A stretch of 64,000 bases of DNA from an uncultured Clostridia bacterium (GTDB taxonomy: Bacteria > Bacillota > Clostridia > TANB77 > CAG-508): assembly GCA_934122385.1 (NCBI GenBank), contig CAKOWP010000002.1:610-64609 (forward strand), written 5' to 3'. Shown here one piece after another: positions 6,478 to 62,679 of this stretch. The notes below the pieces were generated by a model that was not told the origin of the DNA, did no database searches, and saw nothing but the letters and a program-made list of their open reading frames with translations. Position 1 is the first letter of the stretch, and each line of letters starts with the position of its first letter. Position numbers and translations under genes: made by a program.

Positions 6478-7467
6478 ATGATTAATCATGAAGAAAACCC
6501 TGAATATTTAAATTCATTTTTAGACTATACTATGACAATTTTAAACAAATCCCCTAACACAATAAAAGAATATAACTACGACCTAGCAATGTTTTTAAAA
6601 TTTATAAAAACAAGATTTAGATTAACAGATGAAGAAGATTATTCAATGATAGAAATAAAAGATATTAGTCTTGATACCATAAAACAAATTAAATTAGACG
6701 ATATTCACGCTTTTTTAAGTTATCTAACAACTACGTACCACAGTAAAGCAGCAACAAGAGCAAGGAAGGCTTCCAGCATACGTGTTTTTTTCAATTATTT
6801 ATGTGCAAAAGCAAACTTGATTGATAGTAACCCTGCTCAAAATTTGGAAACTCCAAAATTAGATAGACGTCTTCCAAAATATTTAAGTTTAGAAGACAGT
6901 CAAAAACTTTTGGAAGTTACAGAAAATGAAGACAATAGAAATTATCAAAGAGATTATGCTATTATCACACTATTTTTAAATTGTGGTATGCGTTTGTCTG
7001 AATTGGTTGGAATAAATATAAATGATATAGATTTTTCTGAAAATAAAATGACTGTTATTGGTAAAGGTAATAAAGAAAGAACAATTTATCTAAATAAAGC
7101 CTGTGTAAGAGCCATTGGAAATTATTTAGAGGTTAGGCCGAAAGATGGTATTAAGACAGATAAATTAAATTCAAGAAAAGCTCTATTTTTAAGTGAAAGA
7201 CGAGAACGTATTAGTAAAAGAACGGTTCAACATATTGTTGATAAAGAACTTATGGCTGCGAGCCTTGATACAAAAAAATATTCAACGCATAAATTAAGAC
7301 ATACAGCGGCTACATTAATGTATCAATACGGAGATGTTGATATAAGAGCTTTGCAAGAAGTTCTTGGCCATGAAAGTATTTCTACTACAGAAATTTATAC
7401 TCATGTTTCAAATAAACAAGCTAGAAATGCTATCGAAAGTAATCCATTAGCAAATTTTAATAAATAA
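6478..7467 (+). CDS. Tyrosine site-specific recombinase, XerC/XerD family
   Basis: C-terminal catalytic motifs HKLRHTAATLMY and LGHESISTTEIYTHV. N-terminal SAM-like core-binding domain. GGAGAG lies 8 nt upstream of the ATG at 6478. Confidence 0.85.
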   Translation: MINHEENPEYLNSFLDYTMTILNKSPNTIKEYNYDLAMFLKFIKTRFRLTDEEDYSMIEIKDISLDTIKQIKLDDIHAFLSYLTTTYHSKAATRARKASSIRVFFNYLCAKANLIDSNPAQNLETPKLDRRLPKYLSLEDSQKLLEVTENEDNRNYQRDYAIITLFLNCGMRLSELVGININDIDFSENKMTVIGKGNKERTIYLNKACVRAIGNYLEVRPKDGIKTDKLNSRKALFLSERRERISKRTVQHIVDKELMAASLDTKKYSTHKLRHTAATLMYQYGDVDIRALQEVLGHESISTTEIYTHVSNKQARNAIESNPLANFNK

Positions 7468-7468
7468 C

Positions 7469-7496
7469 AAGGTGCCCTAATTAAAGGACACCTTTT
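7469..7496. terminator. Bidirectional intrinsic terminator between convergent genes
   Basis: AAGGTGCCC / GGACACCTT stem (one mismatch) followed by TTTT. Confidence 0.55.
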
Positions 7497-7499
7497 CCT

Positions 7500-7808
7500 C
7501 TAAAAACTGGGAATTTTTAATTTGTCTCCTTCATTTAAATTTGCATTTGCTAAATTATTTACTTTTTTTAATTCATTAACAACATATCTTATATCTTTAC
7601 CTTCAAAGTATTTATTATTTTCTAATTCTTCTTGGGCTATTGACCACAATGTATCTCCAGCACACACATATTCTTCTTTATATTTTATTTCTACATTTGA
7701 ATATGCGTTAGTCGCAAAAATTACTATTGAACTTATTAAAATTGCTAATATTACATTACTTCTTATAAATTTTGCTTTATTTACTATTCTCATTATAATT
7801 ACCTCCAA
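7500..7808 (-). CDS. Small LysM-domain membrane protein, YneA-like candidate SOS cell-division inhibitor
   Basis: 102 aa with an N-terminal TM and a C-terminal LysM (GDTLWSIAQ...GDKLKIP). It is preceded by a consensus promoter overlapped by two LexA-type boxes. Confidence 0.7.
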   Translation of the reverse strand: MEVIIMRIVNKAKFIRSNVILAILISSIVIFATNAYSNVEIKYKEEYVCAGDTLWSIAQEELENNKYFEGKDIRYVVNELKKVNNLANANLNEGDKLKIPSF

Positions 7809-7843
7809 TTCGTATTAAGAATATTTGTTTGCTCTGTGAGATA

Positions 7844-7872
7844 ATTATATACGAACATTTATTCTTTGTCAA
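7844..7872 (-). promoter_or_regulatory. Consensus sigma-A promoter TTGACA-17-TATAAT for the LysM gene
   Basis: The minus strand reads TTGACA aagaataaatgttcgta TATAAT, with an exact 17-nt spacer. Confidence 0.7.
7852..7865. promoter_or_regulatory. LexA (Cheo-type) box candidate 1
   Basis: CGAACATTTATTCT versus the Firmicute consensus CGAAC-N4-GTTCG (2 mismatches). It lies in the promoter spacer. Confidence 0.55.
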
Positions 7873-7880
7873 TAGTTTTT

Positions 7881-7894
7881 AGAAAAAATGTTCG
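7881..7894. promoter_or_regulatory. LexA (Cheo-type) box candidate 2
   Basis: AGAAAAAATGTTCG versus CGAAC-N4-GTTCG (2 mismatches). It lies just upstream of the -35. Confidence 0.5.
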
Positions 7895-7910
7895 TCTTTT
7901 TTATTTTATC

Positions 7911-8144
7911 GTTACAGTTCAGTAATAAAAATCCCTAAAATACCTGTGAATGATATTTTGAATATATTTCGAATGTGACCAAAATAGTGTTACAAATTCT
8001 TAAGTAAATACTCTAAAGGGTCCTGCCTTCGGGTATTGTTAGAGTATTTACATTAGAATTTGTTAACATCATGTAGGGAACCTGAGAAAATATGAAAAAT
8101 ATCATCCACAGATATTTCAGGGATTTTTCCTGTTGAACTGTAAC
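7911..8144. repeat. 234-nt imperfect palindrome: structured RNA (6S-like) or MITE-like element
   Basis: Left arm 7911-8016 pairs with right arm 8039-8144. An ~18-nt unpaired internal loop lies on each side (7971-7988 / 8068-8086). The apical 22 nt contain a cc-UUCG-gg mini-hairpin. Confidence 0.6.
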
Positions 8145-8147
8145 ATT

Positions 8148-9101
8148 TTATCTTTTAAAATTAAATCTATAATAATACGGTTTTATATCATTCAATAGTA
8201 CGTCCATATATACCATGTTTCCATAGCAGTCTTGAACCTTTAAATTTGGAAAAGTTCTTAGCATTTTCTTGTCTCCCCAATATTTATAAATAAAATTAGA
8301 TAATTTTTTATCATTATAAATATCATCATATTTTTGCATAATTATTTCCTTGTTTGGTACATTTAAATCATAATTATGTACCATTCTTACTAAAAAGAAT
8401 GATAACGCTATTCCTGTTGCAATACAATCAACAAGTAGAAATATTGTAACTGTCGTTGTAAGTACCTTCAAAGCTTTAACAGAAAGTTTGCTTTTTATCC
8501 AATTTATTAGTCTGTCTATTCTAGGATTAAATGATGCAATTAGGTATAATGCTAAAAATCCCCAAAATATTGAGAAATAAACACATATTCTTCCATTAAT
8601 ATTAAGTGGCATGTCTGAATAGTCCCACCATTTTACACCTAATAGTATCTCACCTATCCAGCTAACTAGATATTCAACAATTGAACCAACTATAAAACCT
8701 CCAATGAATAGTCGTGTATAGTTTTTTGAATATTTATGTAAGAAAATAATCATTATTGCTGCACCTAGTCCATATATCGCACAAAATGGTCCATATAAAA
8801 AGCTCTGTCTGCTCTCCCATGTTCCCTTAGTTATTATTCCAAATATTGTTTCTATTATATATCCTACTACACTATATATTATGAAGTATGCCAATATTCT
8901 CCATACTGACAAACCCATAATTGTAAATTTTTTCTTTTGATTTGTAGCTTTAGTATTTGTTTGCTCCAATTTATTATCTATTTCCGCTTCTTTATTGCTT
9001 TTTTTTACTGTGTTTTTTATTTCAGCTTCTTTACTGCCTTTTTCAACTTTATTTTTTATTTCATTTTCTTTCATAATATATTTTTCACTCATTTCATTCA
9101 T
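8148..9101 (-). CDS. Polytopic membrane protein (putative ABC-transporter type IV / CmpB-like family) with a K/E-rich N-terminus
   Basis: About 7 TM segments with a YSVVGYIIETIFG-type first helix. The N-terminal 60 aa is lysine/glutamate-rich with an internal repeat. Confidence 0.6.
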   Translation of the reverse strand: MNEMSEKYIMKENEIKNKVEKGSKEAEIKNTVKKSNKEAEIDNKLEQTNTKATNQKKKFTIMGLSVWRILAYFIIYSVVGYIIETIFGIITKGTWESRQSFLYGPFCAIYGLGAAIMIIFLHKYSKNYTRLFIGGFIVGSIVEYLVSWIGEILLGVKWWDYSDMPLNINGRICVYFSIFWGFLALYLIASFNPRIDRLINWIKSKLSVKALKVLTTTVTIFLLVDCIATGIALSFFLVRMVHNYDLNVPNKEIIMQKYDDIYNDKKLSNFIYKYWGDKKMLRTFPNLKVQDCYGNMVYMDVLLNDIKPYYYRFNFKR

Positions 9102-9126
9102 AATTATATATTTTCATGTCCTTTTT

Positions 9127-9166
9127 GGAACCGATGTCTCAAACAGAACCGTCCCCAATAAGACAT
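9127..9166. repeat. REP-like hairpin repeat, type 1 (GGGGACGGTTC loop family)
   Basis: GGAACCGATGTCTCAAACAGAACCGTCCCCAATAAGACAT. The same core occurs at 58545, 62630 and 62731. Confidence 0.85.
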
Positions 9167-10917
9167 TTTAGATCTTTTATCTTCTGATTATAAAATTCAA
9201 TAGCATTCTTATATGTATCTTTGCTTTCTAAATCAACATTAACCATTTTAAGTAAATCAATTGATTTTTTAGAGCATCCTTGTTTAAGCATTTCAATATA
9301 CTTTTCAACAAAACCAGGTTCTTTATTCAATATTTTAGATGCAATAGCAATAGCTGAAGAAACTCCTGTAGAATATTTATATACATAAAAATCGCTATAA
9401 AAATGAGGAATTCTAGCCCATTCATATTTGATTTGTTCATCAATAACAATATCATTTCCAAAGTATTTTTGATTTAATTTATAATATATATCATTTAAAT
9501 CATCAGCTGAAAGCATAACATTATTTTCAATTTTCTCATGAACAATTTTTTCAAATTCAGCAAACATAGCTTGTCTAAAAAATGTAGCTCTTATATTTTC
9601 TAATAATTCATATAGTAGCTCTGCCTTTTTCTTATTATCCTTTTCATTTTTTATTTGATAATCACTTAATAATATTTCATTAACAGTTGATGCTACTTCT
9701 GCAACCATTATTGTATAATCAGCATTTATAACATTTTGTTCTCTATTTGAATAATATGAATGCATACTATGTCCTAATTCATGTGCTATAGTACTTACAT
9801 CTCTTTTACTATTTACAAAGTTAGTTAACACATATGGATGTACTCCATATACTCCCATACTATATGCTCCACCTCTTTTATTTGGCTTTGCATATACATC
9901 TATCCATCTATTATCAAAAGCTTCTTTTAGCTTGTTTGTATATTCTTCTCCTAATATTTGTAATGCATTTAATACTTCTTGTTTTGCATCTTCAAATATT
10001 ATTTCGTCTTTTCCCTGTTCACATGGATTTACATATAAATCATACATATGCATTTCATCTAAATTAAGCATTTTCTTTTTTAATTTTATGAATTCATAAT
10101 TTACTTTCATATCTCCATTAACCGCTTCTATTAAGCTTTCATATACTTTAAGACTTGCATCATCATGTTCAACAGCTTCCTCTAAACTTGAATTGTACTT
10201 TCTTAACTTTGCAGTTGTAGCTTTTGCTTTTACATTTGAAATATACATTTCTGTAATTGTATTTATAAACTCACTGTATTTTTTGTACATTAAGTCAAAA
10301 GCTTGTTTTCTTACATTTCTATCTTTATTTTTTAGGAATAATGTATATGTACTATCTGTCATTTCTACTTCTTTACCATTTTCATCTATTAAAGTACCAA
10401 ATTTAAACTCTGCATTTGTTAGTGTATCAAATGTATTTTCTGGAGCTGATATTATTTCTGAAAAGTTAGCAAGTATATTTTCCTCTTCTTTACTTAGTAC
10501 ATGTTTTTTCTCATTAAGTATATCCTTGATATCTCTTTCATATCCTTTTAATCTTTCTTCTTTGATATACTCTTTTATTGTGTTTTCATCTGCATATGTT
10601 ATTTCTGGTGTCATAAATGATGTTGCAACACTAAATTCTGTTCCTAATGTTTCAACTTCCTTAAATATTTTTATACCTTCTTGGTTTGACATATCTAAAT
10701 GATATTTTAGCATTCCATATGCATATACTTTTTCAAATTTTTCTAGTGCTTGTTCATATAGTTTATAACAATTATATAAATTATCTGATGTGTTACATAG
10801 TACCCCTTGATATTCTTTTATTTTTTCTAAAATACTTATTATCTCGTTTTTTTCTTTTTTGAATTGTTCTTCGTTTTCGAAGATATCTTGTAAGTTCCAG
10901 TTGTATTTTTCTTCCAT
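9139..10917 (-). CDS. pepF: Oligoendopeptidase F (M3B family)
   Basis: HELGHSMHS zinc motif, length and overall architecture. Start set at MEEKYNW (AAAGGA 8 nt upstream). Confidence 0.9.
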   Translation of the reverse strand: MEEKYNWNLQDIFENEEQFKKEKNEIISILEKIKEYQGVLCNTSDNLYNCYKLYEQALEKFEKVYAYGMLKYHLDMSNQEGIKIFKEVETLGTEFSVATSFMTPEITYADENTIKEYIKEERLKGYERDIKDILNEKKHVLSKEEENILANFSEIISAPENTFDTLTNAEFKFGTLIDENGKEVEMTDSTYTLFLKNKDRNVRKQAFDLMYKKYSEFINTITEMYISNVKAKATTAKLRKYNSSLEEAVEHDDASLKVYESLIEAVNGDMKVNYEFIKLKKKMLNLDEMHMYDLYVNPCEQGKDEIIFEDAKQEVLNALQILGEEYTNKLKEAFDNRWIDVYAKPNKRGGAYSMGVYGVHPYVLTNFVNSKRDVSTIAHELGHSMHSYYSNREQNVINADYTIMVAEVASTVNEILLSDYQIKNEKDNKKKAELLYELLENIRATFFRQAMFAEFEKIVHEKIENNVMLSADDLNDIYYKLNQKYFGNDIVIDEQIKYEWARIPHFYSDFYVYKYSTGVSSAIAIASKILNKEPGFVEKYIEMLKQGCSKKSIDLLKMVNVDLESKDTYKNAIEFYNQKIKDLKCLIGDGSV

Positions 10918-10995
10918 TTTTATCATCCTTTCTTTTGCATTTTATGTTTAAATTGTATCACATTATTAATTTGTTTGCTAGATTTATTTTATAAA

Positions 10996-11478
10996 TTATT
11001 CTTTTCCTTCTAATAAAACATTTCTCATTTTTATTATGTTATAAAAAGGTATACTGAATCCCTGTTCCGCTAATCCAACTACCCTAAGAGATGTGACAAT
11101 AACATTCTTTTGTTCTTTAGTAGGTATTTTTACATCCATATTTGAATTCATATATTTATTTTCTATATATTTTTCTGTAGTAGGAAATATATTTTGAATT
11201 AAGAATACCGCTTTTTTTCCTAAAACTTCACCAAAAACAAAATTATATACCGGATTTTTAGGATATTTTTGTTTTTTATTTTCATATATCTTTTTATACT
11301 TTTCATACTTTGTAGAAATTGGAACAAACCATATTATTTCTTTATATTTTCTATCTTTAAAACAAAAATAGCAAGGTCTTTTATTTCCATTTTCTTTGTT
11401 TACCATTAAACCATATTCTTTAAAAACATCAAAAAATTCATCCTTTATAAAATAAAATTTTCCATCTTCTATTACCAT
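10996..11478 (-). CDS. ToxN/AbiQ/CptN-like type III toxin (endoribonuclease) candidate
   Basis: 160 aa. The N-terminus KFYFIKDEFF and the segment IWFVPISTK resemble ToxN/AbiQ. It is preceded by AGGAGGA, a terminator and tandem repeats. Confidence 0.7.
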   Translation of the reverse strand: MVIEDGKFYFIKDEFFDVFKEYGLMVNKENGNKRPCYFCFKDRKYKEIIWFVPISTKYEKYKKIYENKKQKYPKNPVYNFVFGEVLGKKAVFLIQNIFPTTEKYIENKYMNSNMDVKIPTKEQKNVIVTSLRVVGLAEQGFSIPFYNIIKMRNVLLEGKE

Positions 11479-11496
11479 AATATTTTGTCTCCTCCT

Positions 11497-11529
11497 ATAA
11501 AAATATGGGATCTATGATTATAGACCCCA
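11497..11529 (-). terminator. Intrinsic terminator between the repeat array and the toxin ORF
   Basis: The minus strand reads TGGGGTCTAT-aatc-ATAGATCCCA followed by TATTTTTAT. Confidence 0.65.
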
Positions 11530-11641
11530 CATTTAACTATAATTAACATTTTTTCACCTGCACATTTATATCTCGCAAGCAGGGTTGCGGCTCACATTTT
11601 CTCACCTATAAATTTATATTTCGCAAATAGGGTTGCGGTTA
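11530..11641 (-). ncRNA. Candidate type III antitoxin RNA: 2 full 48-nt direct repeats plus a partial third
   Basis: Units 11594-11641 and 11546-11593 are 39/48 identical, and 11530-11545 is a partial unit. Each unit starts AAAATGT on the minus strand and carries CGCAA-N6-TTGCG. Confidence 0.7.
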
Positions 11642-11649
11642 ACATTTTA

Positions 11650-11658
11650 ATTATAGCA
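11650..11658 (-). promoter_or_regulatory. Extended -10 promoter element TGcTATAAT driving the repeat array
   Basis: Minus-strand TGCTATAAT lies immediately upstream of the first repeat. The -35 is weak. Confidence 0.5.
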
Positions 11659-11879
11659 GATATTAAATATCTACTACTAGTATATTCATTATAACCTTTT
11701 TTATTTCAAAATGTCAATAGTTTTTCAGAAAAAATAATAAAATTTTACCTAAAGCGTCCATTTGTGTTTTTTATTATCTATTTAAAATATTAATTTTATA
11801 ATTTTTAAATTATCACAACAAAATAAATTCTAATTTCATATAATATATAAATGTCGAATGAAAGGAGGTTTTGTAAATT

Positions 11880-12458
11880 TTGGAATTAGAACATAAAAAA
11901 ATAGGATTTGTTTTAACAGGTTCATTCTGTACTTTTAGTAAAACAATTCCTAAAATAAAAGAATTAGTTAAAATGGGTGCTGAGGTTATTCCAATTATGT
12001 CTTATAATGCTTATAACTTAGATACTAAATTTGGAAAAGCCGAAGATTTTATAAATGAAATTGAAGAAATTACAAACAAAAAGATTATTCATACTATACA
12101 AGAAGCGGAACCAATTGGACCTAAACACTTAACTGATATTATGGTAGTTGCTCCTTGTTCTGGCAATACAATGTCTAAACTTGCAAATGATATTATTGAT
12201 ACTCCTGCTACTATGGCTGTTAAATCTCATTTAAGAAATAATTTACCTGTTGTTATTGCCGCTTCTACTAATAATGCTTTAAGTGGTAATGCTTCTAATA
12301 TTGGTACTTTACTTAATAGGAAAAATTATTATTTCGTTCCTTTTAGACAAGATAATCCTATTACTAAGCCACGTTCTGTTGTTTTTGATTTTGATTATCT
12401 TATAAAAACTATTGAGGCTGCTTTGGATGGAAAACAGATTCAGCCTATACTACTATAA
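11880..12458 (+). CDS. dpaB: Dipicolinate synthase subunit B (SpoVFB-type flavoprotein)
   Basis: Matches as recalled SpoVFB along its length: IGFVLTGSFCTF, AEPIGPK, VAPCSGNTMSKLAN, YFVPFRQDNP and QIQPIL. TTG start after AAAGGAGG. Confidence 0.8.
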   Translation: MELEHKKIGFVLTGSFCTFSKTIPKIKELVKMGAEVIPIMSYNAYNLDTKFGKAEDFINEIEEITNKKIIHTIQEAEPIGPKHLTDIMVVAPCSGNTMSKLANDIIDTPATMAVKSHLRNNLPVVIAASTNNALSGNASNIGTLLNRKNYYFVPFRQDNPITKPRSVVFDFDYLIKTIEAALDGKQIQPILL

Positions 12459-12460
12459 AA

Positions 12461-12489
12461 GCACATCTATTTATAGATGTGCTCTTTTA
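12461..12489. terminator. Bidirectional intrinsic terminator
   Basis: AGCACATCTA-ttta-TAGATGTGCT followed by CTTTTATTT. Confidence 0.75.
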
Positions 12490-12490
12490 T

Positions 12491-14459
12491 TTAATCTTTG
12501 CCTAATATATATGGATCTGTCTCTGTTCCAGAGCCACCTGCTATATATACTCCATCATTCATTGTAACAACTGGACGGATGCCCAAACAATCATTCTTTT
12601 CATAGTCAATACTACCTTCTTTAGTCACACAATGCTCACCGTGGTTGCCAGCTAGAACCACTTGGGTCAGCAAGCCAATAATATGTCCCTATGTTTCTTA
12701 TCCTCTTATCAGTTATTTTTCTTGCTTCAGTAGCATCCATTATGTGTATATCACTTATATATCCTTTTTTATCTAAATTTTTATCTTTATAGATACTCCA
12801 ATCTCTTGGTTGGTATGTACTATAACCTGTATATCTCTTTCCACTTGATAATATATATGTTACTCTTCTATTGTCCCAATCTTTTGTAAAATAATATACA
12901 AAATTCTCTGGACTTCCTGCATGTGTTATTTTTGTTACATATGTTTTTCCATTTTCTTCTTTACTTTCTAATATTTGCCATCCTGAATATTTTGGTGTTC
13001 CATATCCGCTTTGTGGTGTTACACTTTGGTTTCTACTTGTGATTATATTTCCACTTGCTATATCACTCGCATTTGTTGTATCTCCTTCATATGTAAATCC
13101 TCCAAATGTAAAGTTTAGTCCTGCTGTATTACTTGCTGTCTTTGATTTATTTATATTATATAAACTCTTACTTTGCAATGCTTGTATTTCTTCTCGTGTC
13201 CAGTTTCCTGCATCATATTGCACAAATGCACCTTGTATAAAATATTGATTTACTGTTATTTCCTTATCTTCACTTATTGTCTTGCCGTTATATGTTCCGC
13301 TTACTTTAAATGTATAATTTCCATTTGTCGTTACTTGATATGGTACTTCCTTTGAATTATCTATTTTTAAAACAACTTTGCAACTGTTTCCTTCTAACGT
13401 TGCTATTATATTTATATACAATGGAGTGCCTCTTTCTATTGTATTTGCTTTTTCTGAATTTGTAGCAGTTGAGCTGTTACTTTTGCCTACTGCTATAGCT
13501 GTATATTGTATTTCTAATTTTTTTGTTGTTACCGTTATATTTATATCTCCTGTAACTTTTTCTATTTTAATTTTTCCTGTATTAATATCAACCACATTAT
13601 TTCCAGATGTAGTTACTGTTTGGCCTCCCATTGTAACAGTTAATCCTGTTATTGCATAATTTCCTTCTGTTGATACTGTTGCCTCATATGTTTTGTTATA
13701 TGCTGCTTTTGTTACATTATTATCTATTACTGCATTTTCTGCTAATGTTTTTGTTACATTATAATAATAATCATCTATTTTTATAATTTTTTCTGTTTTA
13801 TTTCCGTCTCCTGTTGTTATAACAAATTTATATTCTTTTCCAAGCTCTACTATATAATCAATTCCTACTGGATCTTTTCTGCTTTGCATTATTAGTGACT
13901 TTTCACTTGGATCTGGGTAATCTACCTGATTTATTCCATTAACCTTATCTGTTATTTCTATCAGTATCTGTACTTTTCCATTTTCTATTTTTTTAGTTTT
14001 ATATTCAAATTCTAATGTACTTACATTATATTCTGTTTTGCTTATTTCTAAGTTTTGATTAATTAAAAACTTTCCTGTAACATCGCTTTTTTTCATTCTA
14101 ACTAATTTTCCGTCTATCGATTCATCTTCTTTTATAGTTGGACTATAATCACTTGAAACTACTGTATTTATCCAGTCTTGTGTTACATCATCTAAACTCG
14201 CATTTTCTTTTTTGTCTAATTGCAATTCATTTAATGCTAGTGTTAATTGTTCCTGCATTTCTGATTGCACATGTGCTTTTTTTGCTTGCTTTACTCTCGC
14301 AAATAAACCATTTTCTCCACCTAATGTTGCTATTGCTATTCCTGATAATATTAATAAAATAACAATAGTTACTACTAACGATACCAATGTTATTCCAACA
14401 TCAGCTTTTCGATTTTTTATTGCGTAACTTTTTTTCATTTGTTTTCTCCTTTTTTTCAT
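12491..14459 (-). pseudogene. Large pilin-like (class III signal peptide-like) surface protein, frameshifted near its 3' end
   Basis: N-terminus KADVG-ITLVSLVVTIVILLILSG is prepilin-like. Ig-like beta-rich repeats follow. The reading frame breaks at about 12636-12673 and the C-terminal 60 aa (LGIRPVV...DPYIL) continue in another frame. Confidence 0.6.
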
Positions 14460-14470
14460 TTGTTTTCTCC
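14429..14470 (-). repeat. Perfect 21-bp tandem duplication containing SD plus ATG
   Basis: GGAGAAAACAAATGAAAAAAA occurs twice on the minus strand, in frame (7 codons). Confidence 0.9.
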
Positions 14471-14484
14471 TTTTTTTATTTTTA

Positions 14485-14550
14485 TACTCCAAATGGAGTA
14501 TAAAAGAATAATACACCATATGGGGTAAAAAGTCAACACCAAATGGAGTA
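14485..14550. promoter_or_regulatory. Three copies of the palindromic operator-like motif ACWCCAWATGGRGTA
   Basis: TACTCCAAATGGAGTA (14485-14500), ACACCATATGGGGTA (14512-14526) and CACCAAATGGAGTA (14537-14550). They lie in the divergent intergenic region next to the XRE gene. Confidence 0.45.
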
Positions 14551-14580
14551 TTTTATATAATAATGTAAGGAGTGAGAAAA

Positions 14581-14799
14581 ATGTTGAGATTAAAGGATTT
14601 AAGAGAAGATTATGAACTAACACAAGCTGAATGTGCCAAAATTGGTTATATATCTAAAAATTCATACATTAGATATGAAAAAGAAGAAAGAATCATACCA
14701 TTAGATACCCTAATTTACTATGCAAAATATTATAATACTTCATTAGATTATTTAGCAGGACTAACAAACATATCAAAACCATATCAAAGAAAAAAGTAA
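14581..14799 (+). CDS. XRE-family helix-turn-helix transcriptional regulator
   Basis: LTQAECAKIGYISKNSYIRYEKEER is a Cro/C1-type HTH. AAGGAG lies 8 nt upstream of the ATG at 14581. Confidence 0.85.
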   Translation: MLRLKDLREDYELTQAECAKIGYISKNSYIRYEKEERIIPLDTLIYYAKYYNTSLDYLAGLTNISKPYQRKK

Positions 14800-14807
14800 A
14801 AAAATAG

Positions 14808-14850
14808 AAACACGAATTTCTCTATTGAAAAATCGTGTTTTTATTTTTTT
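14808..14850 (+). terminator. Intrinsic terminator
   Basis: AAACACGA...TCGTGTTT stem followed by TTATTTTTTT. Confidence 0.65.
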
Positions 14851-14897
14851 ACTTTCGACAAAATACAACAAATTTGTGAGACAAATTCAGACTGTCC

Positions 14898-16616
14898 CTA
14901 CTGTCCCAAAATTTCTTTTAATTCTTCATTTCTTTTAACCTTCTTAGTAGTAGTCTTAATAAGTTCCTTATCAGTCAAAATCATATTCATAATATGTTTA
15001 TATCTAGGAACGGTAGTATTAACCTCATTCTTAATTTTATTCCAAATAATATCTCTAATCTCATCAAAAGAAATATCACCATATTTTTGTTTTACTTCAT
15101 CTTTATTATAAACAACCTTAACAGAAAGTTTAACATCATTTTTATCAACTTCGTCAGGCATTCCAAATACCATACATTCTTCTATTAAATCAATTCTGTT
15201 AACCAAAGTTTCAATTTCCTCTGGGAAGATTTTTTTACCATTTTTAAGAACTATCATATTCTTTTGTCTACCTGTTATAAAAATAAAGCCATCTTTATCA
15301 ATATAACCTAAATCTCCAGTATAGAACCAACCATCTTTAAGTACTTTATTTGTTTCTTCTTCGTTTTCATAGTAACCAAGCATTACATTAGGTCCTTTTG
15401 CACGTAGTTCACCTATCCCATTATCGTCTTTATTTACAACTTCAACAGTCACATTTTCCATTGGAACTCCTATTGAACCTGTTCTTGATTTGTACATATT
15501 TTCTGCTGCAATAACTGGTGATGTTTCTGTTAAACCATATCCTTGTGCTACATTTATTCCTAAATCTATAAATCCTTTTTGTATTTTAGGGTCTAATGGT
15601 GCTCCACCTGAAATTACAAATCTCATTTTTCCGCCTAATTGGTCAATTAACTGTTTGAATAATTTTCTTCTAATATCTATATGGAATTTTAATAAGAAGT
15701 TACTAACTCTTATAGCATTTTTTATAAGTTTTGTTTTTCCCTGTTTATCAATTTCTTTTACCACTTTATTGTAGATTGCTTCTACCAATAGTGGTACACC
15801 AACAAATACAGATACTTCATATTCTTTTAAGTTTTGTGCCACATATCTTAATCCATCTGGAAATGATGTCCTAGCACCACATGCTAACATAACGATTAGA
15901 CATGTTGAACCAAATATATGGTGCATTGGTAAAAATGCTAAATTTGAGTCTGTGCTTCTAATGTCTTCAACTCTTTGCATTGCATATACATTTGATGCAA
16001 TATTTTTTTGTGATAGCATTACAGCTTTTGATTTTGATGTTGTTCCAGATGTGAATAACAAAATATTCATTGCATTTTCATCTATTTTTGCAGATATATA
16101 TTCTTTGTTTCCTTCTTCTAGTAATTTTTGTCCTTCCTCTTTTAATGTATTTATATCATTATATCCTGCTAGTTTTGACATACAAATATATTCTTTTACA
16201 TTTGTATTGTTTCTGTTTTTTATTTCTTCTATTTTTTCTATGTATTTTTCGTCAAAATATATTGCATCTGCTTTACTTCTCATTAATGAGCTTTCTAGTT
16301 CATCTATTTGTAAATCTTTGTCTAATGGAATTGATACTATTCCACCTAATAAACTTGTTAAGTGTCCTAGTGCCCATTCATATCTATTTCGCCCCAAAAT
16401 GGCTATTCTTTTATTTTTAAATCCCATACTGTATAATTTAGTGCCTAAAGCATTTATTTGTTCTAAAAGCATTTTATAAGTTATATTTTCGTATGTTTTA
16501 GTTTTTCCTTCTTGGCGTTTTACTATAAATGCTATATTGTTTGCATATGTTTTGGCTGAGTTGTATATTAGTTCTTTTATGTCCTTAACTTCTTGGACTA
16601 TTTTTTCTTTTTTCAT
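14898..16616 (-). CDS. AMP-dependent synthetase/ligase (long-chain acyl-CoA synthetase-like)
   Basis: AMP-binding motifs LLFTSGTTSKSKAV, GYGLTETS, YTGDLGYIDKDGFIFITGR and KNGKKIFPEEIE. Confidence 0.85.
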   Translation of the reverse strand: MKKEKIVQEVKDIKELIYNSAKTYANNIAFIVKRQEGKTKTYENITYKMLLEQINALGTKLYSMGFKNKRIAILGRNRYEWALGHLTSLLGGIVSIPLDKDLQIDELESSLMRSKADAIYFDEKYIEKIEEIKNRNNTNVKEYICMSKLAGYNDINTLKEEGQKLLEEGNKEYISAKIDENAMNILLFTSGTTSKSKAVMLSQKNIASNVYAMQRVEDIRSTDSNLAFLPMHHIFGSTCLIVMLACGARTSFPDGLRYVAQNLKEYEVSVFVGVPLLVEAIYNKVVKEIDKQGKTKLIKNAIRVSNFLLKFHIDIRRKLFKQLIDQLGGKMRFVISGGAPLDPKIQKGFIDLGINVAQGYGLTETSPVIAAENMYKSRTGSIGVPMENVTVEVVNKDDNGIGELRAKGPNVMLGYYENEEETNKVLKDGWFYTGDLGYIDKDGFIFITGRQKNMIVLKNGKKIFPEEIETLVNRIDLIEECMVFGMPDEVDKNDVKLSVKVVYNKDEVKQKYGDISFDEIRDIIWNKIKNEVNTTVPRYKHIMNMILTDKELIKTTTKKVKRNEELKEILGQ

Positions 16617-16821
16617 TTTTATTTTCCTTTCTTAAAATACGAAATCTGTCAAAATTATTTTTAACAGATTAGTCTAGTCTTGTTAGCAGTTGAATTAAAT
16701 AACAATTGCTTTTACAATAATACACTATTTTTTAAAATTTGTCACTAGTCTTGGTGGTCAGTTGTTACAGTTCAGTTATTATTTTTAAATTTCTGCATAT
16801 TCATTAAAGAGGTGAATTTAT

Positions 16822-18321
16822 TTGAGACAAAAAAGTAAACTATTTCTAATAAATGGTGCAATACTAACAAGTACATCACTACTTATGAAATTTGCAGCAC
16901 TTATTTTCAATATATACATATCAAATCAAATAGGTTCAGAAGCGGTTGGTGTATTCAGCTTAGTAATGGCTGTATACCTATTTTTCATAACTGTTGCAAC
17001 ATCTGGATTAAACATTGCAGTAACTGTTATTGTTTCAGAAAAGTTTGCCTTAAATAAAAATAAACAAGCTATAAAGGCAATACGTACTTGTATATTTTTC
17101 AGCTTATTATTGGGAATAACTGCAGGTGGACTAATTTTACTTTTTTCTGATTTTATTACAAGTAAATGTTTGCACAATATGGTTTCTTCTAAGCCATTAT
17201 TTTACATTGCAATTGGATTACCTTTTATTGCTATGTCTTCTTGTATCAGTAGTTATTTTACAACTGTACGAAAAGCTTATAAAAATGCTATCACCCAAGT
17301 TTTTGAATTTACAATTAAAATGGTTGCAACAATAATATTACTTAAGATAAATATTTCTAATGGTGTAGAAGCGGTTTGTATTTCGCTTATTTTAGCTGAT
17401 GTAATTTCAGAAGTATGTTCTTTTACATTAATTTTTATTTTGTATATTATAGATATAAGACTTAAAAAATTAGAAGATGTCCGTTCATTTGGACAAAGAT
17501 TTAATATTTTAAAAATTGCTTTTCCAGTGGCTGTTACATCATATATACGCTCTGGGCTTTCAACTTTAAAACAATTGATAATTCCTACTCAACTTGAAAA
17601 GTCCGGCATTTCTTGTAGCAGAGCTCTTTCACAATATGGTATGATTAATGGTATGGTACTTCCAGTTATAACATTTCCAACTGTTTTTACAGATTCTTAT
17701 AGTATGCTTTTAATACCAGAGTTTTCAACATATGTAGCACAAAAAAACTATAAAGCAATTAACTATGTTGCAAATAAGATTTTTAAAATTACTTGTGCAT
17801 TTTCTATGTGTGTTTGCAGTATATTTTTTATATTTTCAAATGATTTAGGGCTTGCAATTTATAATAACATTGAGACCGGATACTTTTTTAAGGTATTTAC
17901 TCCTTTTATATTTTTTATGTATATGGACCATATTATTGACTGTATTTTAAAAGGTTTGAACAAACAGTTTGGCGTTATGTGCTGCAATATTTTAGATTTG
18001 AGTATTACAACATGCTTTATTTATTTTTTACTTCCTGTTTTGGGCATTAAAGGATATGTACTATCTATCTTTTTCAGCGAAGTGTTGAATTTTAGCATTA
18101 GTCTTTTCCAGTTGTATAAGTATTCTAAAATAAAGCCTAATTTAATAGACTGGATTATTATTCCTTTAACTTGTAGCTTAATTGCGTATTTTGTAACAAA
18201 TATTTTTCACTTTAACCTAATTAATCTTACTGTTAATCTAGTTTTTAATATATTGCTTTTTATTTTTATTTATGTGATAAGTTTCTTTATAATAAATTTA
18301 CTTAGACGAAAAAATAGCTAG
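16822..18321 (+). CDS. MOP-superfamily polysaccharide/peptidoglycan-lipid flippase (SpoVB/Wzx-like)
   Basis: About 14 TM segments with a SpoVB-like N-terminus LINGAILTSTSLLMKF. TTG start after AAGAGGTGA. Confidence 0.7.
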   Translation: MRQKSKLFLINGAILTSTSLLMKFAALIFNIYISNQIGSEAVGVFSLVMAVYLFFITVATSGLNIAVTVIVSEKFALNKNKQAIKAIRTCIFFSLLLGITAGGLILLFSDFITSKCLHNMVSSKPLFYIAIGLPFIAMSSCISSYFTTVRKAYKNAITQVFEFTIKMVATIILLKINISNGVEAVCISLILADVISEVCSFTLIFILYIIDIRLKKLEDVRSFGQRFNILKIAFPVAVTSYIRSGLSTLKQLIIPTQLEKSGISCSRALSQYGMINGMVLPVITFPTVFTDSYSMLLIPEFSTYVAQKNYKAINYVANKIFKITCAFSMCVCSIFFIFSNDLGLAIYNNIETGYFFKVFTPFIFFMYMDHIIDCILKGLNKQFGVMCCNILDLSITTCFIYFLLPVLGIKGYVLSIFFSEVLNFSISLFQLYKYSKIKPNLIDWIIIPLTCSLIAYFVTNIFHFNLINLTVNLVFNILLFIFIYVISFFIINLLRRKNS

Positions 18322-18341
18322 AAATACACTAGCTATTTTTT
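18314..18341. terminator. Bidirectional intrinsic terminator
   Basis: ATAGCTAG-aaataca-CTAGCTAT followed by TTTTT. Confidence 0.7.
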
Positions 18342-18344
18342 AAT

Positions 18345-19313
18345 CTATTTTAACCACTCAGGATTTGCTAAATACCAATCAATAGTCTTAACAATACCAT
18401 CTTCAAACTTAGTCTTTGGATACCAACCAAGTTCATTTTTTATTTTTGTTGGGTCAATTGCATATCTATAATCATGACCTTTTCTATCAGCAACATGTTC
18501 AATTAAATCTTCAGATTTTCCTAATCTTTGTAAGATTAATTTAACAATTTCAATGTTTCTTCTTTCATTGTGTCCACCAATGTTATATCTTTCACCAGCA
18601 ACACCATTATGGAATACTAAATCAATTGCTTCACAATGGTCTTCAACATATAACCAATCTCTAATGTTTAATCCTTCACCATAAACAGGTAATTTTTCAT
18701 CATTTAATGCTAATTTAATCATATGTGGAATTAATTTTTCATTGTGTTGATATGGTCCATAGTTGTTTGAACAGTTTGTTACATTTACATTCATTTTAAA
18801 TGTTTCATGATATGCAAATGCAATTAAATCTGAACTTGCTTTTGATGCTGAATATGGGCTACTTGGTTTAATTGGAGATTTTTCTGTAAAATATCCATCT
18901 TCTTTAAGTGATCCATAAACTTCATCTGTTGATATATGAACAAATTTATTTGAACTTCCTTCCCCCCATACTTGTTTAGCTGCTTCTAATAAAGTATGTG
19001 TTCCTATTACATTTGTGTGTGTAAATATAAATGGATTTTTAATGCTGTTATCAACATGTGATTCAGCTGCAAAGTGAATTACACCATTTATATCATATTT
19101 TTTAAATAAATCTAGTACAAAATCAAAATCACAAATATCTCCTTGTACAAATGTTATTTTATCCATTACTTTTTTTAAGTTATCTAAATTTCCTGCATAT
19201 GTTAATTTGTCTAATACTACTACTTTATAGTCAGGATGTTTATTTACAAAATATTCTACAAAATTTGCTCCTATAAATCCTGCTGCACCTGTTACTAATA
19301 CATTTTTACTCAT
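18345..19313 (-). CDS. rfbB: dTDP-glucose 4,6-dehydratase
   Basis: TGAAGFIG Rossmann motif, YSASKASSD catalytic motif, and the characteristic length and C-terminus. Confidence 0.92.
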   Translation of the reverse strand: MSKNVLVTGAAGFIGANFVEYFVNKHPDYKVVVLDKLTYAGNLDNLKKVMDKITFVQGDICDFDFVLDLFKKYDINGVIHFAAESHVDNSIKNPFIFTHTNVIGTHTLLEAAKQVWGEGSSNKFVHISTDEVYGSLKEDGYFTEKSPIKPSSPYSASKASSDLIAFAYHETFKMNVNVTNCSNNYGPYQHNEKLIPHMIKLALNDEKLPVYGEGLNIRDWLYVEDHCEAIDLVFHNGVAGERYNIGGHNERRNIEIVKLILQRLGKSEDLIEHVADRKGHDYRYAIDPTKIKNELGWYPKTKFEDGIVKTIDWYLANPEWLK

Positions 19314-19339
19314 TTTAAATACCTCTTTCTTTCAAACGA

Positions 19340-19439
19340 AATTCAACCAATGGGGACGTTCTTAAATTGGTTGAATTTCTTTAAAATTATTTTATTTTTT
19401 TATTCAACCAATTTAAGAACGTCCCCATTGGTTGAATTT
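19340..19439. repeat. Inverted pair of REP-like hairpins, type 2 (GGGGACGTTCTTA loop)
   Basis: AATTCAACCAAT-GGGGACGTTCTTAA-ATTGGTTGAATT (19340-19377), with its reverse complement at 19402-19439. Confidence 0.9.
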
Positions 19440-20016
19440 ATAAATTACTAAATAAATCTGTTTCTTTTAATTCTTTAAGTGATGGCCATTTTCCATCTTT
19501 TTCAGATGTTAATAAATCTTCTGGTTTTAAATCACCCATAGGCCATTCAATTCCTATATCTGGGTCATCCCATTTAAGGCCACCTTCTGCTTCATGGTTA
19601 TAAACATCATCACATTTATAAGCAAATTCAGCTTCATCTGATAGAACCAAGAATCCATGTGCAAATCCTTTTGGTATCATAAACATTTTTTTATTTTCTT
19701 CTGTTAATACAACACCTTCCCATTTTCCATATGTTTTGCTTCCTGGTCTTAAGTCAACTGCAACATCAAATACTGAACCTTTAATACATCTAACTAATTT
19801 TGATTGTGTATTTTCTTTTTGAAAATGTAATCCTCTTAAAACACCTTTTTTTGATTTTGATTGATTATCTTGTACAAAGTCATAATTTAATCCTAATTCT
19901 TCAAAATCAGCTTTGCTGTATGTTTCCATAAAGTATCCTCTGTTATCACCAAATACTGTTGGTTCTATAATACATACACCTTCAATAGATGTATCAATTT
20001 TTTTAAATTTTCCCAT
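19438..20016 (-). CDS. rfbC: dTDP-4-dehydrorhamnose 3,5-epimerase
   Basis: FGDNRGYF, RGLHFQ and PKGFAHGF motifs of the RmlC cupin. Confidence 0.92.
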   Translation of the reverse strand: MGKFKKIDTSIEGVCIIEPTVFGDNRGYFMETYSKADFEELGLNYDFVQDNQSKSKKGVLRGLHFQKENTQSKLVRCIKGSVFDVAVDLRPGSKTYGKWEGVVLTEENKKMFMIPKGFAHGFLVLSDEAEFAYKCDDVYNHEAEGGLKWDDPDIGIEWPMGDLKPEDLLTSEKDGKWPSLKELKETDLFSNL

Positions 20017-20052
20017 CTTAAATATCTCCTTTCTTATTTTCTTATGTATTTT

Positions 20053-53428: not shown

Positions 53429-53513
53429 TACTTTAGCTATGTTTTTTACAAAAAATATTAATATATCAATATTTATAATAATTAATACTTATATTTTACT
53501 GAACTGTAACACA

Positions 53514-54704
53514 TTATTCTACTGCATAATATTTTGACCAATGATTATCCCATATTAAATAATCACTTGAGTCTCCACCAATTATTTCACCAGTTGTGCA
53601 GTCTACAAAATAGCTATATTGTCCCTTTTGTGTTCTTTCAGCTAGATTTTCAAATTCATTTTTATTTTCATCATTTTTTTCTGCATAATTAAATACTACA
53701 ACCCAAACTCTTCTTACTCTATTATCAGTTTTATATAAATATCTTTCATTGTCTGGTACTTCCACCTGCATCATTGGTTTATAATAATCATCTGTATATT
53801 TTAATCTTGCATACGCATCACCATTCATTTTTTCAATTCTAAGTTCTGCATCTGTTTTTATAATGTCTTTTGTTTCGACTTTTCTATCTTCATTTTTTGC
53901 AATTTCTATCGCTTGCTCTTTTGTTATTTCCATTGGATTATTTTCAAATTTATTATTTAAAACTCTATAGTTATATAAATGTTTATCTTTTGCAAAAAAA
54001 TCTATTTCTATTGTTTCATACCTATTGATTAATCCATCATAAACTTTACTAAATTGTGCAAAAAATTCATAACCTGAATTACCGTTGCCTTCTCCTTTTT
54101 TATCATTTGCACGTAATGAAACTAATTTATATTCTTCTTCTTTATATCCAAATTGATTATAAAAATATTTTGCAACTTCTATCGCTTCTTTTCTTGTAAT
54201 TGTGTGTTTTTCCCATTCGTTATTATAATCACCAAAGATTAAGCTTTCAAATTCTGATGTTATCGCATTTATTGATACTATCCATTTATTATTAGTTTTA
54301 AAGCAATATGAATCCAACATTTTTTCCTGGCTTGGCACATCTATTGTTTCAGTTATTTCTTCATTTAAAAAACCTATTTCTTTCAATTTATCTTTTGCTA
54401 TTTCTTTTGCTTGTTCTTCTGTAATATATTGTTTTTCTTCAGTTGATTCTTGCTGCGCTTCTTCTACACTAATTCTTTCTGGATCTTTCCAAATTTTTTG
54501 ATACAATTCATGTCCTGCAAAACTAACTCCACCAGCTACTAATATTCCTGCACATGCTGTTGCACATATTTTTGCAAATTCAAATATTTTATTTTTGTTT
54601 TTTATTTTTTTATATAATGCACCTTGTATTGTCTGTGTAAATTTTAATGGAACATTTTTATCTTCATTAAATTTTGATTCTATCTTTTTATCTAACTCAT
54701 CCAT
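53514..54704 (-). CDS. Anti-sigma-factor-like membrane protein with three PepSY-like extracytoplasmic repeats
   Basis: Abuts the sigma gene stop. Has a short cytoplasmic N-terminus and one TM. The motif IT.E(Q/E)A.EIAK recurs three times. Confidence 0.55.
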   Translation of the reverse strand: MDELDKKIESKFNEDKNVPLKFTQTIQGALYKKIKNKNKIFEFAKICATACAGILVAGGVSFAGHELYQKIWKDPERISVEEAQQESTEEKQYITEEQAKEIAKDKLKEIGFLNEEITETIDVPSQEKMLDSYCFKTNNKWIVSINAITSEFESLIFGDYNNEWEKHTITRKEAIEVAKYFYNQFGYKEEEYKLVSLRANDKKGEGNGNSGYEFFAQFSKVYDGLINRYETIEIDFFAKDKHLYNYRVLNNKFENNPMEITKEQAIEIAKNEDRKVETKDIIKTDAELRIEKMNGDAYARLKYTDDYYKPMMQVEVPDNERYLYKTDNRVRRVWVVVFNYAEKNDENKNEFENLAERTQKGQYSYFVDCTTGEIIGGDSSDYLIWDNHWSKYYAVE

Positions 54705-58544: not shown

Positions 58545-58595
58545 TGTCTCTTTGGGGACGGTTCTGTTTGAGACATCCGGTTCCTTTTGAGACAT
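58545..58595. repeat. REP-like hairpin repeat, type 1
   Basis: TGTCTCTTTGGGGACGGTTCTGTTTGAGACATCCGGTTCCTTTTGAGACAT. Confidence 0.85.
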
Positions 58596-62629: not shown

Positions 62630-62679
62630 TGTCTCTTTGGGGACGGTTCTGTTTGAGACATCGGTTCCAAAAGAGACAT
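62630..62679. repeat. REP-like hairpin repeat, type 1 (full unit)
   Basis: TGTCTCTTTGGGGACGGTTCTGTTTGAGACATCGGTTCCAAAAGAGACAT. Confidence 0.9.

What the first reader, a model, noticed from the sequence alone, without database searches (positions are those of the whole stretch)
7911..8144. 234-nt near-perfect hairpin with a large central bubble and a cUUCGg apical loop (6S-like RNA or MITE)
Left arm 7911-8016 and right arm 8039-8144 are reverse complements, apart from roughly ten mismatches or bulges and one symmetric internal loop of about 18 nt per side (7971-7988 / 8068-8086) that has no complementarity. The 22-nt apex contains gcc-UUCG-ggt on the plus strand.

A long interrupted helix with a big central bubble is the defining shape of 6S RNA, the RNA-polymerase-sequestering open-promoter mimic. 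The helix here is longer and more perfect than typical 6S RNAs, which also fits a palindromic MITE/ERIC-like DNA element.

The strand is ambiguous. A U-tract follows the hairpin on the plus strand (ATTTTATCTTTT), and the UUCG loop is also plus-strand. However, more arm differences resolve to G-U wobbles on the minus strand (4 versus 2).

The element sits exactly where lexA would normally lie, divergent from a yneA-type gene. LexA box 2 (7881-7894) overlaps a weak plus-strand promoter (TTAGAA-17-TATTTT) that would start transcription at the first base of the hairpin.
Basis: partly seen in the sequence, partly recalled or inferred. Interest (0 to 1): 0.7.

Follow-up and report, generated by a model that had tools for sequence, protein, structure and literature searches.

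The report
Miniature transposon (MITE), not 6S RNA
The 234-base hairpin is a small non-coding jumping-gene remnant (a MITE related to IS66-family insertion sequences) found in many copies across gut Clostridia, not an RNA gene, so it is an ordinary kind of feature from a family that seems not to have been described.

Summary
The hairpin at 7911-8144 is real and far stronger than chance (z about -12 on either strand). [quoted passage not shown]

- An exact 8-bp direct repeat, ATTTTATC, flanks it at 7903-7910 and 8145-8152. This is a target-site duplication.
- Its 11-nt tips, GTTACAGTTCA, bound 220-250-nt elements at 99 places in 45 Clostridia assemblies, up to 13 loci per genome. Of 97 copies, 64 have a duplication matching at 6 or more of 8 positions, against 1.7% in controls.
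- At this same locus, close relatives carry a full copy, a 44-nt internally deleted copy or a 16-nt solo tip. A slightly more distant lineage has a clean empty site of the predicted length.
- The same tips and the same 8-bp duplication bound 2.17-2.27-kb insertion sequences that encode IS66-family transposases. These are the likely mobilisers.
- No Rfam family matches, 6S included. The UUCG loop is not conserved, and the "U-tract" is simply the duplicated target.
- lexA was never at this site.

The open point is a core that stays conserved and asymmetric while the arms change in step. An arm-to-arm copying event suggests this happens at the DNA level.

The parts
7911..8144 (.). The MITE itself: a 234-bp non-coding foldback element
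   Evidence: Inverted repeat and fold statistics. Family members at 99 loci. A profile of 32 family members matches 7911-8144 end to end, E = 2e-54.
7911..7921 (+). Left terminal inverted-repeat tip, GTTACAGTTCA
   Evidence: This is the same 11-nt tip that I used as the search pattern and that bounds all family copies. With 0-2 mismatches it also forms the ends of IS66-family insertion sequences.
8134..8144 (-). Right terminal inverted-repeat tip, TGAACTGTAAC on the plus strand
   Evidence: Exact reverse complement of the left tip.
7903..7910 (.). Left copy of the 8-bp target-site duplication, ATTTTATC
   Evidence: Read directly from the sequence. The empty site in L110/L111 has the length predicted once the element and one duplication copy are removed.
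8145..8152 (.). Right copy of the 8-bp target-site duplication, ATTTTATC. It contains the stop codon (8148-8150) of the upstream PF06541 membrane-protein gene.
7969..7991 (.). Left side of the conserved asymmetric core ('bubble'), TTCGAATGTGACCAAAATAG...
   Evidence: Conserved in 32 family copies from different genomes, while the flanking arms differ.
8017..8038 (.). Apex, AGGGTCCTGCCTTCGGGTATTG. It is conserved as AAAGGGTCCTG....CGGGTATTGTT, but the four loop bases vary.
8064..8086 (.). Right side of the conserved asymmetric core, ...CATGTAGGGAACCTGAGAAAA
16764..16776 (+). Solo tip: the remnant of a second copy of the same MITE
   Evidence: The exact 13-mer is found here. The syntenic locus L034 (96-97% identical DNA) has a full 234-bp copy with the duplication GGTCAGTT at exactly this place. 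The window's deletion joins TCAGT microhomologies.
53498..53510 (-). Solo tip, probably the remnant of a third copy, 3 nt downstream of the stop codon of the gene at 53514-54704
   Evidence: The exact 13-mer occurs 3 times in the window against 0.08 expected. No relative with a full copy at this site was found.

Best explanation
The hairpin is a non-autonomous DNA transposon: a foldback-type MITE that carries the terminal inverted repeats of a group of IS66-family insertion sequences.

Shown:
- It inserted into the 8-bp target ATTTTATC. That target overlaps the stop codon of a PF06541 membrane-protein gene and lies 10 bp upstream of the distal LexA-like box of the yneA-type LysM gene. The insertion duplicated the target.
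- The same tips and the same duplication length mark about 2.2-kb elements that encode an IS66-family DDE transposase.
- The long palindrome is unstable. Relatives show copies deleted between short direct repeats, down to a solo tip.

Inferred:
- The element moves when such a transposase, supplied in trans, binds the tips and makes an 8-bp staggered cut in the target.
- At this locus it is most likely a neutral passenger. The upstream gene has no terminator, so its transcript probably reads into the element and ends in a long RNA duplex. No function is attached to that.
For: - Flanking duplication: an exact 8-bp direct repeat flanks the element.
- Copy number: the pattern tip-N(197-227)-tip hits 99 stretches in 45 Clostridia assemblies, where roughly 2 are expected by chance. 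There are several copies per genome: CAMEON01 13 loci, CAWVJB01 8, CAZQAI01 8, and the window's closest relative CAMBEE01 5 plus one more.
- Duplications across the family: 42 of 97 copies have a perfect 8-bp duplication and 64 of 97 match at 6 or more of 8 positions, against 1.7% in offset controls.
- Same locus in relatives: a full copy (L102), a 44-nt internally deleted copy still flanked by the duplication (L103, L106, L107), a 16-nt solo tip (L108, L109) and a clean empty site (L110, L111).
- A second site: the window has a solo tip where L034 has a full copy.
- Autonomous partners: L134:4646-8616 is bounded by the tips with a perfect duplication AAAATTAT and encodes a protein that matches Pfam DDE_Tnp_IS66 (53.8 bits, cut-off 23.1) and NCBIfam transpos_IS66 (162 bits).
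- Three further transposase lineages (58-64% identical) all sit in 2167-2229-bp elements with the same tips. Four different insertion sites have perfect 8-bp duplications, and a fifth matches at 7 of 8 positions.
- G+C-rich MITE subfamilies share 18-30 nt of terminal repeat with these insertion sequences.
- Classical IS66 ends (GTAACCGTCCGG, PMC12888890) resemble GTTACAGTTCAC.
- There is no Rfam match and no open reading frame of note in the element.
Against: - No IS66-family transposase was found in the 64-kb window or in the contigs held for this species, so the ability of this copy to move today is untested.
- The window's subfamily shares only the 11-12-nt tip with the insertion sequences found. 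Longer end similarity is seen only for G+C-rich subfamilies.
- The NCBIfam IS66 score for the L134 transposase (162) is just under that model's cut-off (180), although the Pfam domain is well above its own.
- About a third of family copies lack a recognisable duplication. Some of these are old insertions, and some sit between inverted host flanks.
- A conserved asymmetric core with arms that change in step is not needed by a plain cut-and-paste model.
Confidence: 0.93

Rival explanations
1. It is a 6S-like or other small RNA gene: a long interrupted helix with a central bubble, transcribed from a LexA-controlled plus-strand promoter and ended by the U-tract.
For: The shape superficially resembles 6S RNA, with a long helix, a roughly 23-nt-per-side internal loop and an apical hairpin. 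The internal loop and apex are conserved among family members.
Against: - No 6S or other Rfam match at gathering score or at E <= 10.
- The element is multi-copy with target-site duplications.
- It is absent, truncated or reduced to 16 nt at this very locus in close relatives.
- The 'U-tract' is the duplicated target.
- The proposed promoter fails a consensus scan.
- The UUCG loop is not conserved.
- There is no strand bias in this copy, and no orientation bias relative to genes.
Confidence: 0.02
2. It is a MITE that the host has put to use at this locus. It could act as a barrier or RNase III-type processing site that insulates the SOS-controlled yneA-type gene from read-through out of the upstream PF06541 gene, or it could alter LexA control.
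For: - The element starts 3 nt after the upstream gene's stop codon and ends 10 bp before the distal LexA-like box.
- No terminator lies between the two genes in the empty site.
- A read-through transcript would form a duplex of about 100 bp.
Against: - Relatives do without it or carry only remnants, with the promoter region unchanged.
- Family copies show no orientation preference relative to flanking genes.
- There is no intrinsic terminator signature on the minus strand.
- There are no expression data.
Confidence: 0.08
3. It is a host-maintained palindromic repeat of the REP or ERIC type that spreads by recombination rather than transposition.
For: It is intergenic, palindromic and multi-copy. 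A few copies sit between inverted host flanks with no duplication.
Against: Most copies have 8-bp duplications of unrelated target sequences. The ends and duplication length are identical to those of transposase-encoding IS66-family elements. The insertion breakpoints against the empty site are clean.
Confidence: 0.02

Closest known systems
IS66-family insertion sequences (DDE transposase 'TnpC'; classical members have ends starting GTAA and 8-bp duplications)
   Same: The 8-bp target-site duplication is the same. The terminal repeat GTTACAGTTCAC resembles GTAACCGTCCGG / GTAAGCGTCCGG (PMC12888890). The tips are those of 2.2-kb elements that encode IS66-family transposases.
   Different: The window element has no transposase and is 234 bp long. 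The related autonomous elements found here carry a 75-80-aa coiled-coil ORF plus one 511-528-aa transposase, not the classical tnpA-tnpB-tnpC trio. Their ends start GTTAC, not GTAA.
Bacterial MITEs such as Correia/NEMIS (Neisseria), ERIC/IRU (enterobacteria), RUP (pneumococcus) and MITEAba12 (PMC6382973)
   Same: It is short, non-coding and intergenic, with terminal inverted repeats, target-site duplications, many copies and a hairpin-forming transcript if read through.
   Different: There is no sequence relationship. The duplication is 8 bp (TA for Correia and RUP, 9 bp for MITEAba12). The palindrome is unusually long and runs almost the whole element. The arm sequences differ greatly between subfamilies, while an asymmetric core is conserved.
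6S RNA (Rfam RF00013 and relatives)
   Same: Only the outline is shared: a long helix, a large internal loop and an apical stem-loop.
   Different: There is no covariance-model match. The element is multi-copy and mobile, it is not syntenic, and there is no evidence of a defined transcript.
Eukaryotic foldback elements and MITE-derived microRNA precursor hairpins
   Same: The palindrome runs almost end to end. This explains the weak Rfam matches to plant and animal microRNA-precursor hairpin families such as MIR2646, 43.8 bits against a gathering score of 245.
   Different: It is bacterial, there is no microRNA pathway, and the matches are far below threshold.

Membership tests
[quoted passage not shown] | Short (under about 600 bp) with no transposase gene | tested here: met
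   The element is 234 bp, and one search lists no ORF of 40 aa or more inside it.
MITE | Terminal inverted repeats | tested here: met
   The 11-nt tips are exact, and the arms pair over about 58 + 25 nt.
MITE | Target-site duplication of fixed length | tested here: met
   ATTTTATC flanks both ends. Of 97 family copies, 64 match at 6 or more of 8 positions, against 1.7% in controls.
MITE | Multiple dispersed copies within genomes | tested here: met
   99 loci in 45 assemblies, up to 13 loci per assembly. The window holds 1 full copy and 2 solo tips.
MITE | Presence/absence polymorphism with a clean empty site | tested here: met
   Full copy, 44-nt remnant, 16-nt remnant and empty site at the same locus. 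A second site is shown.
MITE | An autonomous element with matching ends and the same duplication length | tested here: met
   IS66-family elements of 2167-2266 bp have the same tips and 8-bp duplications. They were found in other Clostridia contigs, not in this species.
MITE | Mobilisation in trans by that transposase | not testable with these tools
   This needs a transposition assay.
IS66-family derivative | Ends related to IS66-type terminal repeats | tested here: met
   The tip matches the ends of IS66-transposase-encoding elements with 0-2 mismatches. G+C-rich subfamilies share 18-30 nt. The window subfamily shares only 11-12 nt.
IS66-family derivative | The partner's transposase belongs to the IS66 family | tested here: met
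   Pfam PF03050 scores 53.8 bits (cut-off 23.1). NCBIfam transpos_IS66 scores 162 bits, just below its cut-off of 180. Homologues carry PF03050 in precomputed annotation.
6S RNA | Match to the 6S covariance models | tested here: not met
   There is no match at gathering score in the window, and none at E <= 10 in 7400-8600.
6S RNA | A single conserved gene kept in relatives | tested here: not met
   The element is multi-copy and is missing or truncated at this locus in close relatives.
6S RNA | Binds RNA polymerase holoenzyme and templates product RNA | not testable with these tools
   This needs biochemistry.

The most novel reading that the evidence does not exclude
The family may carry a functional folded module. 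Across 25 representative copies chosen from the 32 that share the core, the sub-terminal arms differ almost completely yet stay complementary (37 of 70 pairs show compensatory changes). A roughly 23-nt-per-side asymmetric internal loop and the apex stay conserved, and the apex keeps several G-T wobble pairs on one strand.

This could mean that the single-stranded hairpin, as DNA during transposition or replication or as RNA, is itself recognised, for example by the IS66-family transposase or by a host factor. That would make this a structure-dependent MITE rather than a plain pair of ends.

The ordinary alternative is template-switch 'palindrome correction', which homogenises the arms, combined with sequence-level constraint on internal binding sites. 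One copy (L024) has had its loop converted into a perfect palindrome, which fits this alternative.
Probability: 0.1. Interest if true: 0.6.

Novelty: new member of a known kind. Interest (0 to 1): 0.3.

Why it matters
- It removes a false lead. There is no 6S-like RNA gene here and no displaced lexA.
- It defines a widespread MITE family in gut and rumen Clostridia (Clostridium, Lachnospiraceae, Hungatella, Lacrimispora, Ruminiclostridium) and links it to IS66-family insertion sequences. I found no description of this family in the literature available to me. This is useful for annotation, because such hairpins are easily mistaken for small-RNA genes or terminators.
- The locus shows step by step how a long bacterial palindrome decays: full copy, internal deletion, solo tip.
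- The solo 13-mers elsewhere in the window are explained as the scars of such decay.
- The element sits next to an SOS-controlled cell-division inhibitor gene, but nothing suggests that this matters.

Tried and rejected
- Rfam at gathering score over the whole window and at E <= 10 over 7400-8600 gave nothing meaningful.
- BLAST of the element, and of a 2.7-kb concatenate of 40 subfamily ends, against plasmid and phage collections found nothing. The single 28-nt Pseudomonas hit at E = 0.2 is chance.
- Two scans of viral contigs gave 0 hits, so the element is not phage-borne.
- I searched the first 114 held loci for long tip-to-tip elements with duplications, for ORFs next to solo tips and for recurrent protein families. 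None showed a transposase. Short-read assemblies probably break at the insertion-sequence copies.
- I considered an IS6/IS26-like parent because of the 8-bp duplication and the shared G1 and G7-T8-T9 positions (PMC6807381, PMC7986276).
- I considered the IS4-family element found as the mobiliser and rejected it. Its own ends are CAATGTCATT..., it makes 9-10-bp duplications, and it lies inside the tip in either orientation.
- Strand tests were indecisive. G-T against A-C mismatches are 97:58 over non-independent copies and 5:5 in the window copy. Orientation relative to genes shows no bias.
- Literature searches for the tip sequence and for Clostridial or IS66 MITEs found no description.

Full report
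**Observation**

The window is A+T-rich (26.6% G+C). Positions 7911-8144 form a long imperfect palindrome.
- The outer arms are 7911-7968 / 8087-8144 (58 nt, 83% complementary).
- The inner arms are 7992-8016 / 8039-8063 (25 nt, 92% complementary).
- About 23 nt per side between them do not pair, and the apex is 22 nt and contains GCCTTCGGGT.
- As a single strand the region folds at -93.9 kcal/mol (plus) or -94.9 (minus), against about -44 and -41 for dinucleotide shuffles. That is z = -11.8 and -12.3, and no shuffle folds as well.

It is equally strong on both strands, as expected for a DNA palindrome.

**The decisive detail**

The eight bases before the hairpin (ATTTTATC, 7903-7910) recur exactly after it (8145-8152). 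This is the signature of a transposon insertion. The stop codon of the upstream gene (8148-9101, minus strand, Pfam PF06541) lies inside the right-hand copy.

**Copies elsewhere**

The first 13 nt of the element (GTTACAGTTCAGT) also occur at 16764 and 53498 in the window, 3 matches against 0.08 expected.

One scan of the species-representative genome collection used the two 11-nt tips separated by 197-227 nt. It returned 99 stretches of DNA, where my rough estimate is about 2 by chance. The hits come from 45 assemblies of Clostridia: Clostridium, Lachnospiraceae, Hungatella effluvii, [Clostridium] symbiosum, Lacrimispora and Ruminiclostridium. Several genomes have many copies: 13 loci in CAMEON01, 8 in CAWVJB01 and 8 in CAZQAI01.

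Of 97 copies with enough flank, 42 have a perfect 8-bp duplication and 64 match at 6 or more of 8 positions. Offset controls give 1.7%. The duplicated sequences are unrelated to one another and A+T-biased.

Ten copies are 91-95% identical to the window's. They come from CAMBEE01, CAKOUU01 and Clostridium sp. 28_17, plus a more diverged copy in URWN01.

**The same locus in relatives**

I looked up homologues of the PF06541 protein on their contigs and aligned the spacer between that gene and the LysM gene. The alignment gives a complete series.
- Contigs from the window's own strain are identical.
- CAMBEE01 (L102, 96% protein identity) has a full copy with one mismatch in a tip.
- L103, L106 and L107 retain only 44 nt, the left tip joined to the last 32 nt, still flanked by the duplication.
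- L108 and L109 retain a 16-nt solo tip.
- L110 and L111 (91% protein identity) have an uninterrupted site of exactly the length predicted after removing the element and one copy of the duplication.

Likewise, L034 is 96-97% identical to window 10331-20035. It has a full 234-bp copy with the duplication GGTCAGTT where the window keeps only the solo tip at 16764. The deletion joins two TCAGT microhomologies.

The element is therefore an insertion that is polymorphic in the population and decays by deletion across the hairpin. A conserved RNA gene would not behave this way.

**Not an RNA family**

Nothing in the 64 kb reaches an Rfam gathering score. At E <= 10 the region gives only far-sub-threshold matches to microRNA-precursor hairpins, which are themselves long hairpins.
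- The UUCG loop is not conserved. Most subfamilies have UUUC, and close copies have CUUCAG, CUUCUG or UCUCCG.
- A consensus scan finds no more promoter-like sites than chance. The single strong one is TTGACA-17-TATAAT at 7872-7844 on the minus strand, with a LexA-like box in its spacer, and it drives the 97-aa LysM (yneA-type) gene.
- The empty-site spacer is 113 nt, so lexA was never there.

**Who moves it**

No transposase lay near copies in the first 114 loci.

Some G+C-rich subfamilies carry CAATGTCATT 15-16 nt inside the tip. A metagenome scan for tip plus that motif gave 61 contigs, many with the motif at a contig end, as is typical of multi-copy insertion sequences. This motif proved to be the end of a separate IS4-family element (NCBIfam transpos_IS4_1, 155.6 bits). 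That element sits exactly 6 nt inside the tip, in either orientation, with its own 9-10-bp duplication GTTCACNNN(N). It targets the tip and does not own it.

One of these contigs revealed the true partner. L134:4646-8616 is bounded by GTTACGGTTCACACGTCCGCCAG and its inverted copy, with a perfect 8-bp duplication AAAATTAT. Without the nested IS4-type element it is 2266 bp. It encodes an 80-aa coiled-coil protein and a 526-aa protein that matches Pfam DDE_Tnp_IS66 (53.8 bits, cut-off 23.1) and NCBIfam transpos_IS66 (162 bits, cut-off 180).

This transposase has more than a thousand relatives in the protein collection (1,461 of the 8,000 candidates scored reached E <= 1e-20). Most sit on contigs of about 2.2 kb. 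I inspected three lineages (58-64% identical), and all lie in 2167-2229-bp elements with the same tips. Four different insertion sites have perfect 8-bp duplications: GCATAATT (seen on two contigs, L185 and L186), TCTGATTT, TAATATTT and ACTTAAGA. A fifth matches at 7 of 8 positions.

G+C-rich MITE subfamilies share 18-30 nt of terminal repeat with these elements. Classical IS66 ends (GTAACCGTCCGG, GTAAGCGTCCGG; PMC12888890) resemble the tip. From general knowledge, the IS66 family makes 8-bp duplications.

I conclude that the window element is a MITE of this IS66-family group. For the window's own A+T-rich subfamily the shared end is only 11-12 nt, and no autonomous copy was seen in this species.

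**Anatomy of the family**

Thirty-two of 101 copies share a homologous core with the window's copy.
- The 11-nt tip is the same in all copies; that tip was the search pattern, so this is by construction.
- The next roughly 45 nt of each arm differ almost completely between subfamilies, yet remain complementary.
- The two sides of the internal loop (TTCGAATGCGACC... and ...GGGAATCGAAGGGTAGCCGAGAA) and the apex (AAAGGGTCCTG....CGGGTATTGTT) are conserved.
- In a 25-sequence alignment, 37 of 70 predicted pairs show compensatory changes.

This would normally suggest a functional fold. However, one copy (L024) has had its loop replaced by the reverse complement of the other side, which made it a perfect palindrome. 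That points to arm-to-arm templated correction at the DNA level.

Wobble-type mismatches show only a weak strand bias (97:58 over non-independent copies, 5:5 in the window copy). Insertions show no orientation preference relative to genes.

Other subfamilies, mostly G+C-rich, are not simple palindromes at all and share only the tips. I treat a structure-dependent function as an unexcluded minority reading.

**Consequences at this locus (inference)**

The element lies between the stop codon of the PF06541 gene and the LexA-like boxes and promoter of the yneA-type gene. Both genes are on the minus strand, with no terminator between them. Read-through RNA would end in a duplex of about 100 bp. 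Relatives lacking the element have the same promoter region, so a neutral passenger is the simplest view.

**Verdict**

It is an ordinary kind of element (a MITE) from a family that I could not find described, and it is now tied to IS66-family insertion sequences.

Noticed in passing
L119, L134, L136, L140, L155, L171 (metagenome contigs); e.g. L134:6906-8600: An IS4-family insertion sequence (1.70-1.91 kb, ends CAATGTCATT..., 9-10-bp duplication GTTCACNNN(N)) is found again and again inserted exactly 6 nt inside the GTTACAGTTCAC tip of the IS66-type elements, in either orientation. This looks like site-specific targeting of another transposon's end. From memory, it recalls IS231A inserting into the ends of Tn4430. 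In L115, L130, L142 and L151 the same element is flanked by inverted tips with no 8-bp duplication.
   Followed up: partly
window 9134-9156 (+), 58554-58576 (-), 62639-62661 (-), 62731-62753 (+): The 23-mer ATGTCTCAAACAGAACCGTCCCC occurs four times exactly, against 0 expected. It lies in short spacers or 5' leaders of minus-strand genes. Two copies form a perfect 32-nt inverted repeat (62630-62661 / 62731-62762). A longer shared stretch, ...GAGACATCGGTTCCAAAA(A)G(A/G)GACAT, is seen at 9115-9156 and 62630-62680. There is no Rfam match. It could be an operator, a leader element or another small repeat family.
   Followed up: partly
window 19339-19376 / 19402-19439: A perfect 38-nt inverted repeat with a 25-nt spacer sits between two minus-strand genes. 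It contains GGGGACGTTC, which is similar to part of the 23-mer above.
   Followed up: no
window 7851-7865 and 7881-7895: Two LexA-like boxes of the form AGAA(T/A)AAATGTTCG lie in inverted orientation around the -35 of the LysM (yneA-type) gene promoter (TTGACA-17-TATAAT, 7872-7844, minus strand). They are conserved in the relatives aligned, including those with the empty site. This fits an SOS-controlled cell-division inhibitor gene.
   Followed up: partly
L023:323-570, L031:3967-4203, L099:6514-6743: A few family copies have no direct duplication and instead sit between perfectly inverted host flanks of 13-19 nt. These look like terminator stems, or like the palindrome having grown outward.
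   Followed up: no
window 10995-11788 compared with L034; L102-L109 compared with window 7468-7500: There are small gene-content differences between the window and its closest relatives. A 160-aa ORF (10996-11478) is missing in CAMBEE01, and a 129-aa ORF lies between the LysM gene and the XerD-like recombinase gene in relatives but not in the window.
   Followed up: no
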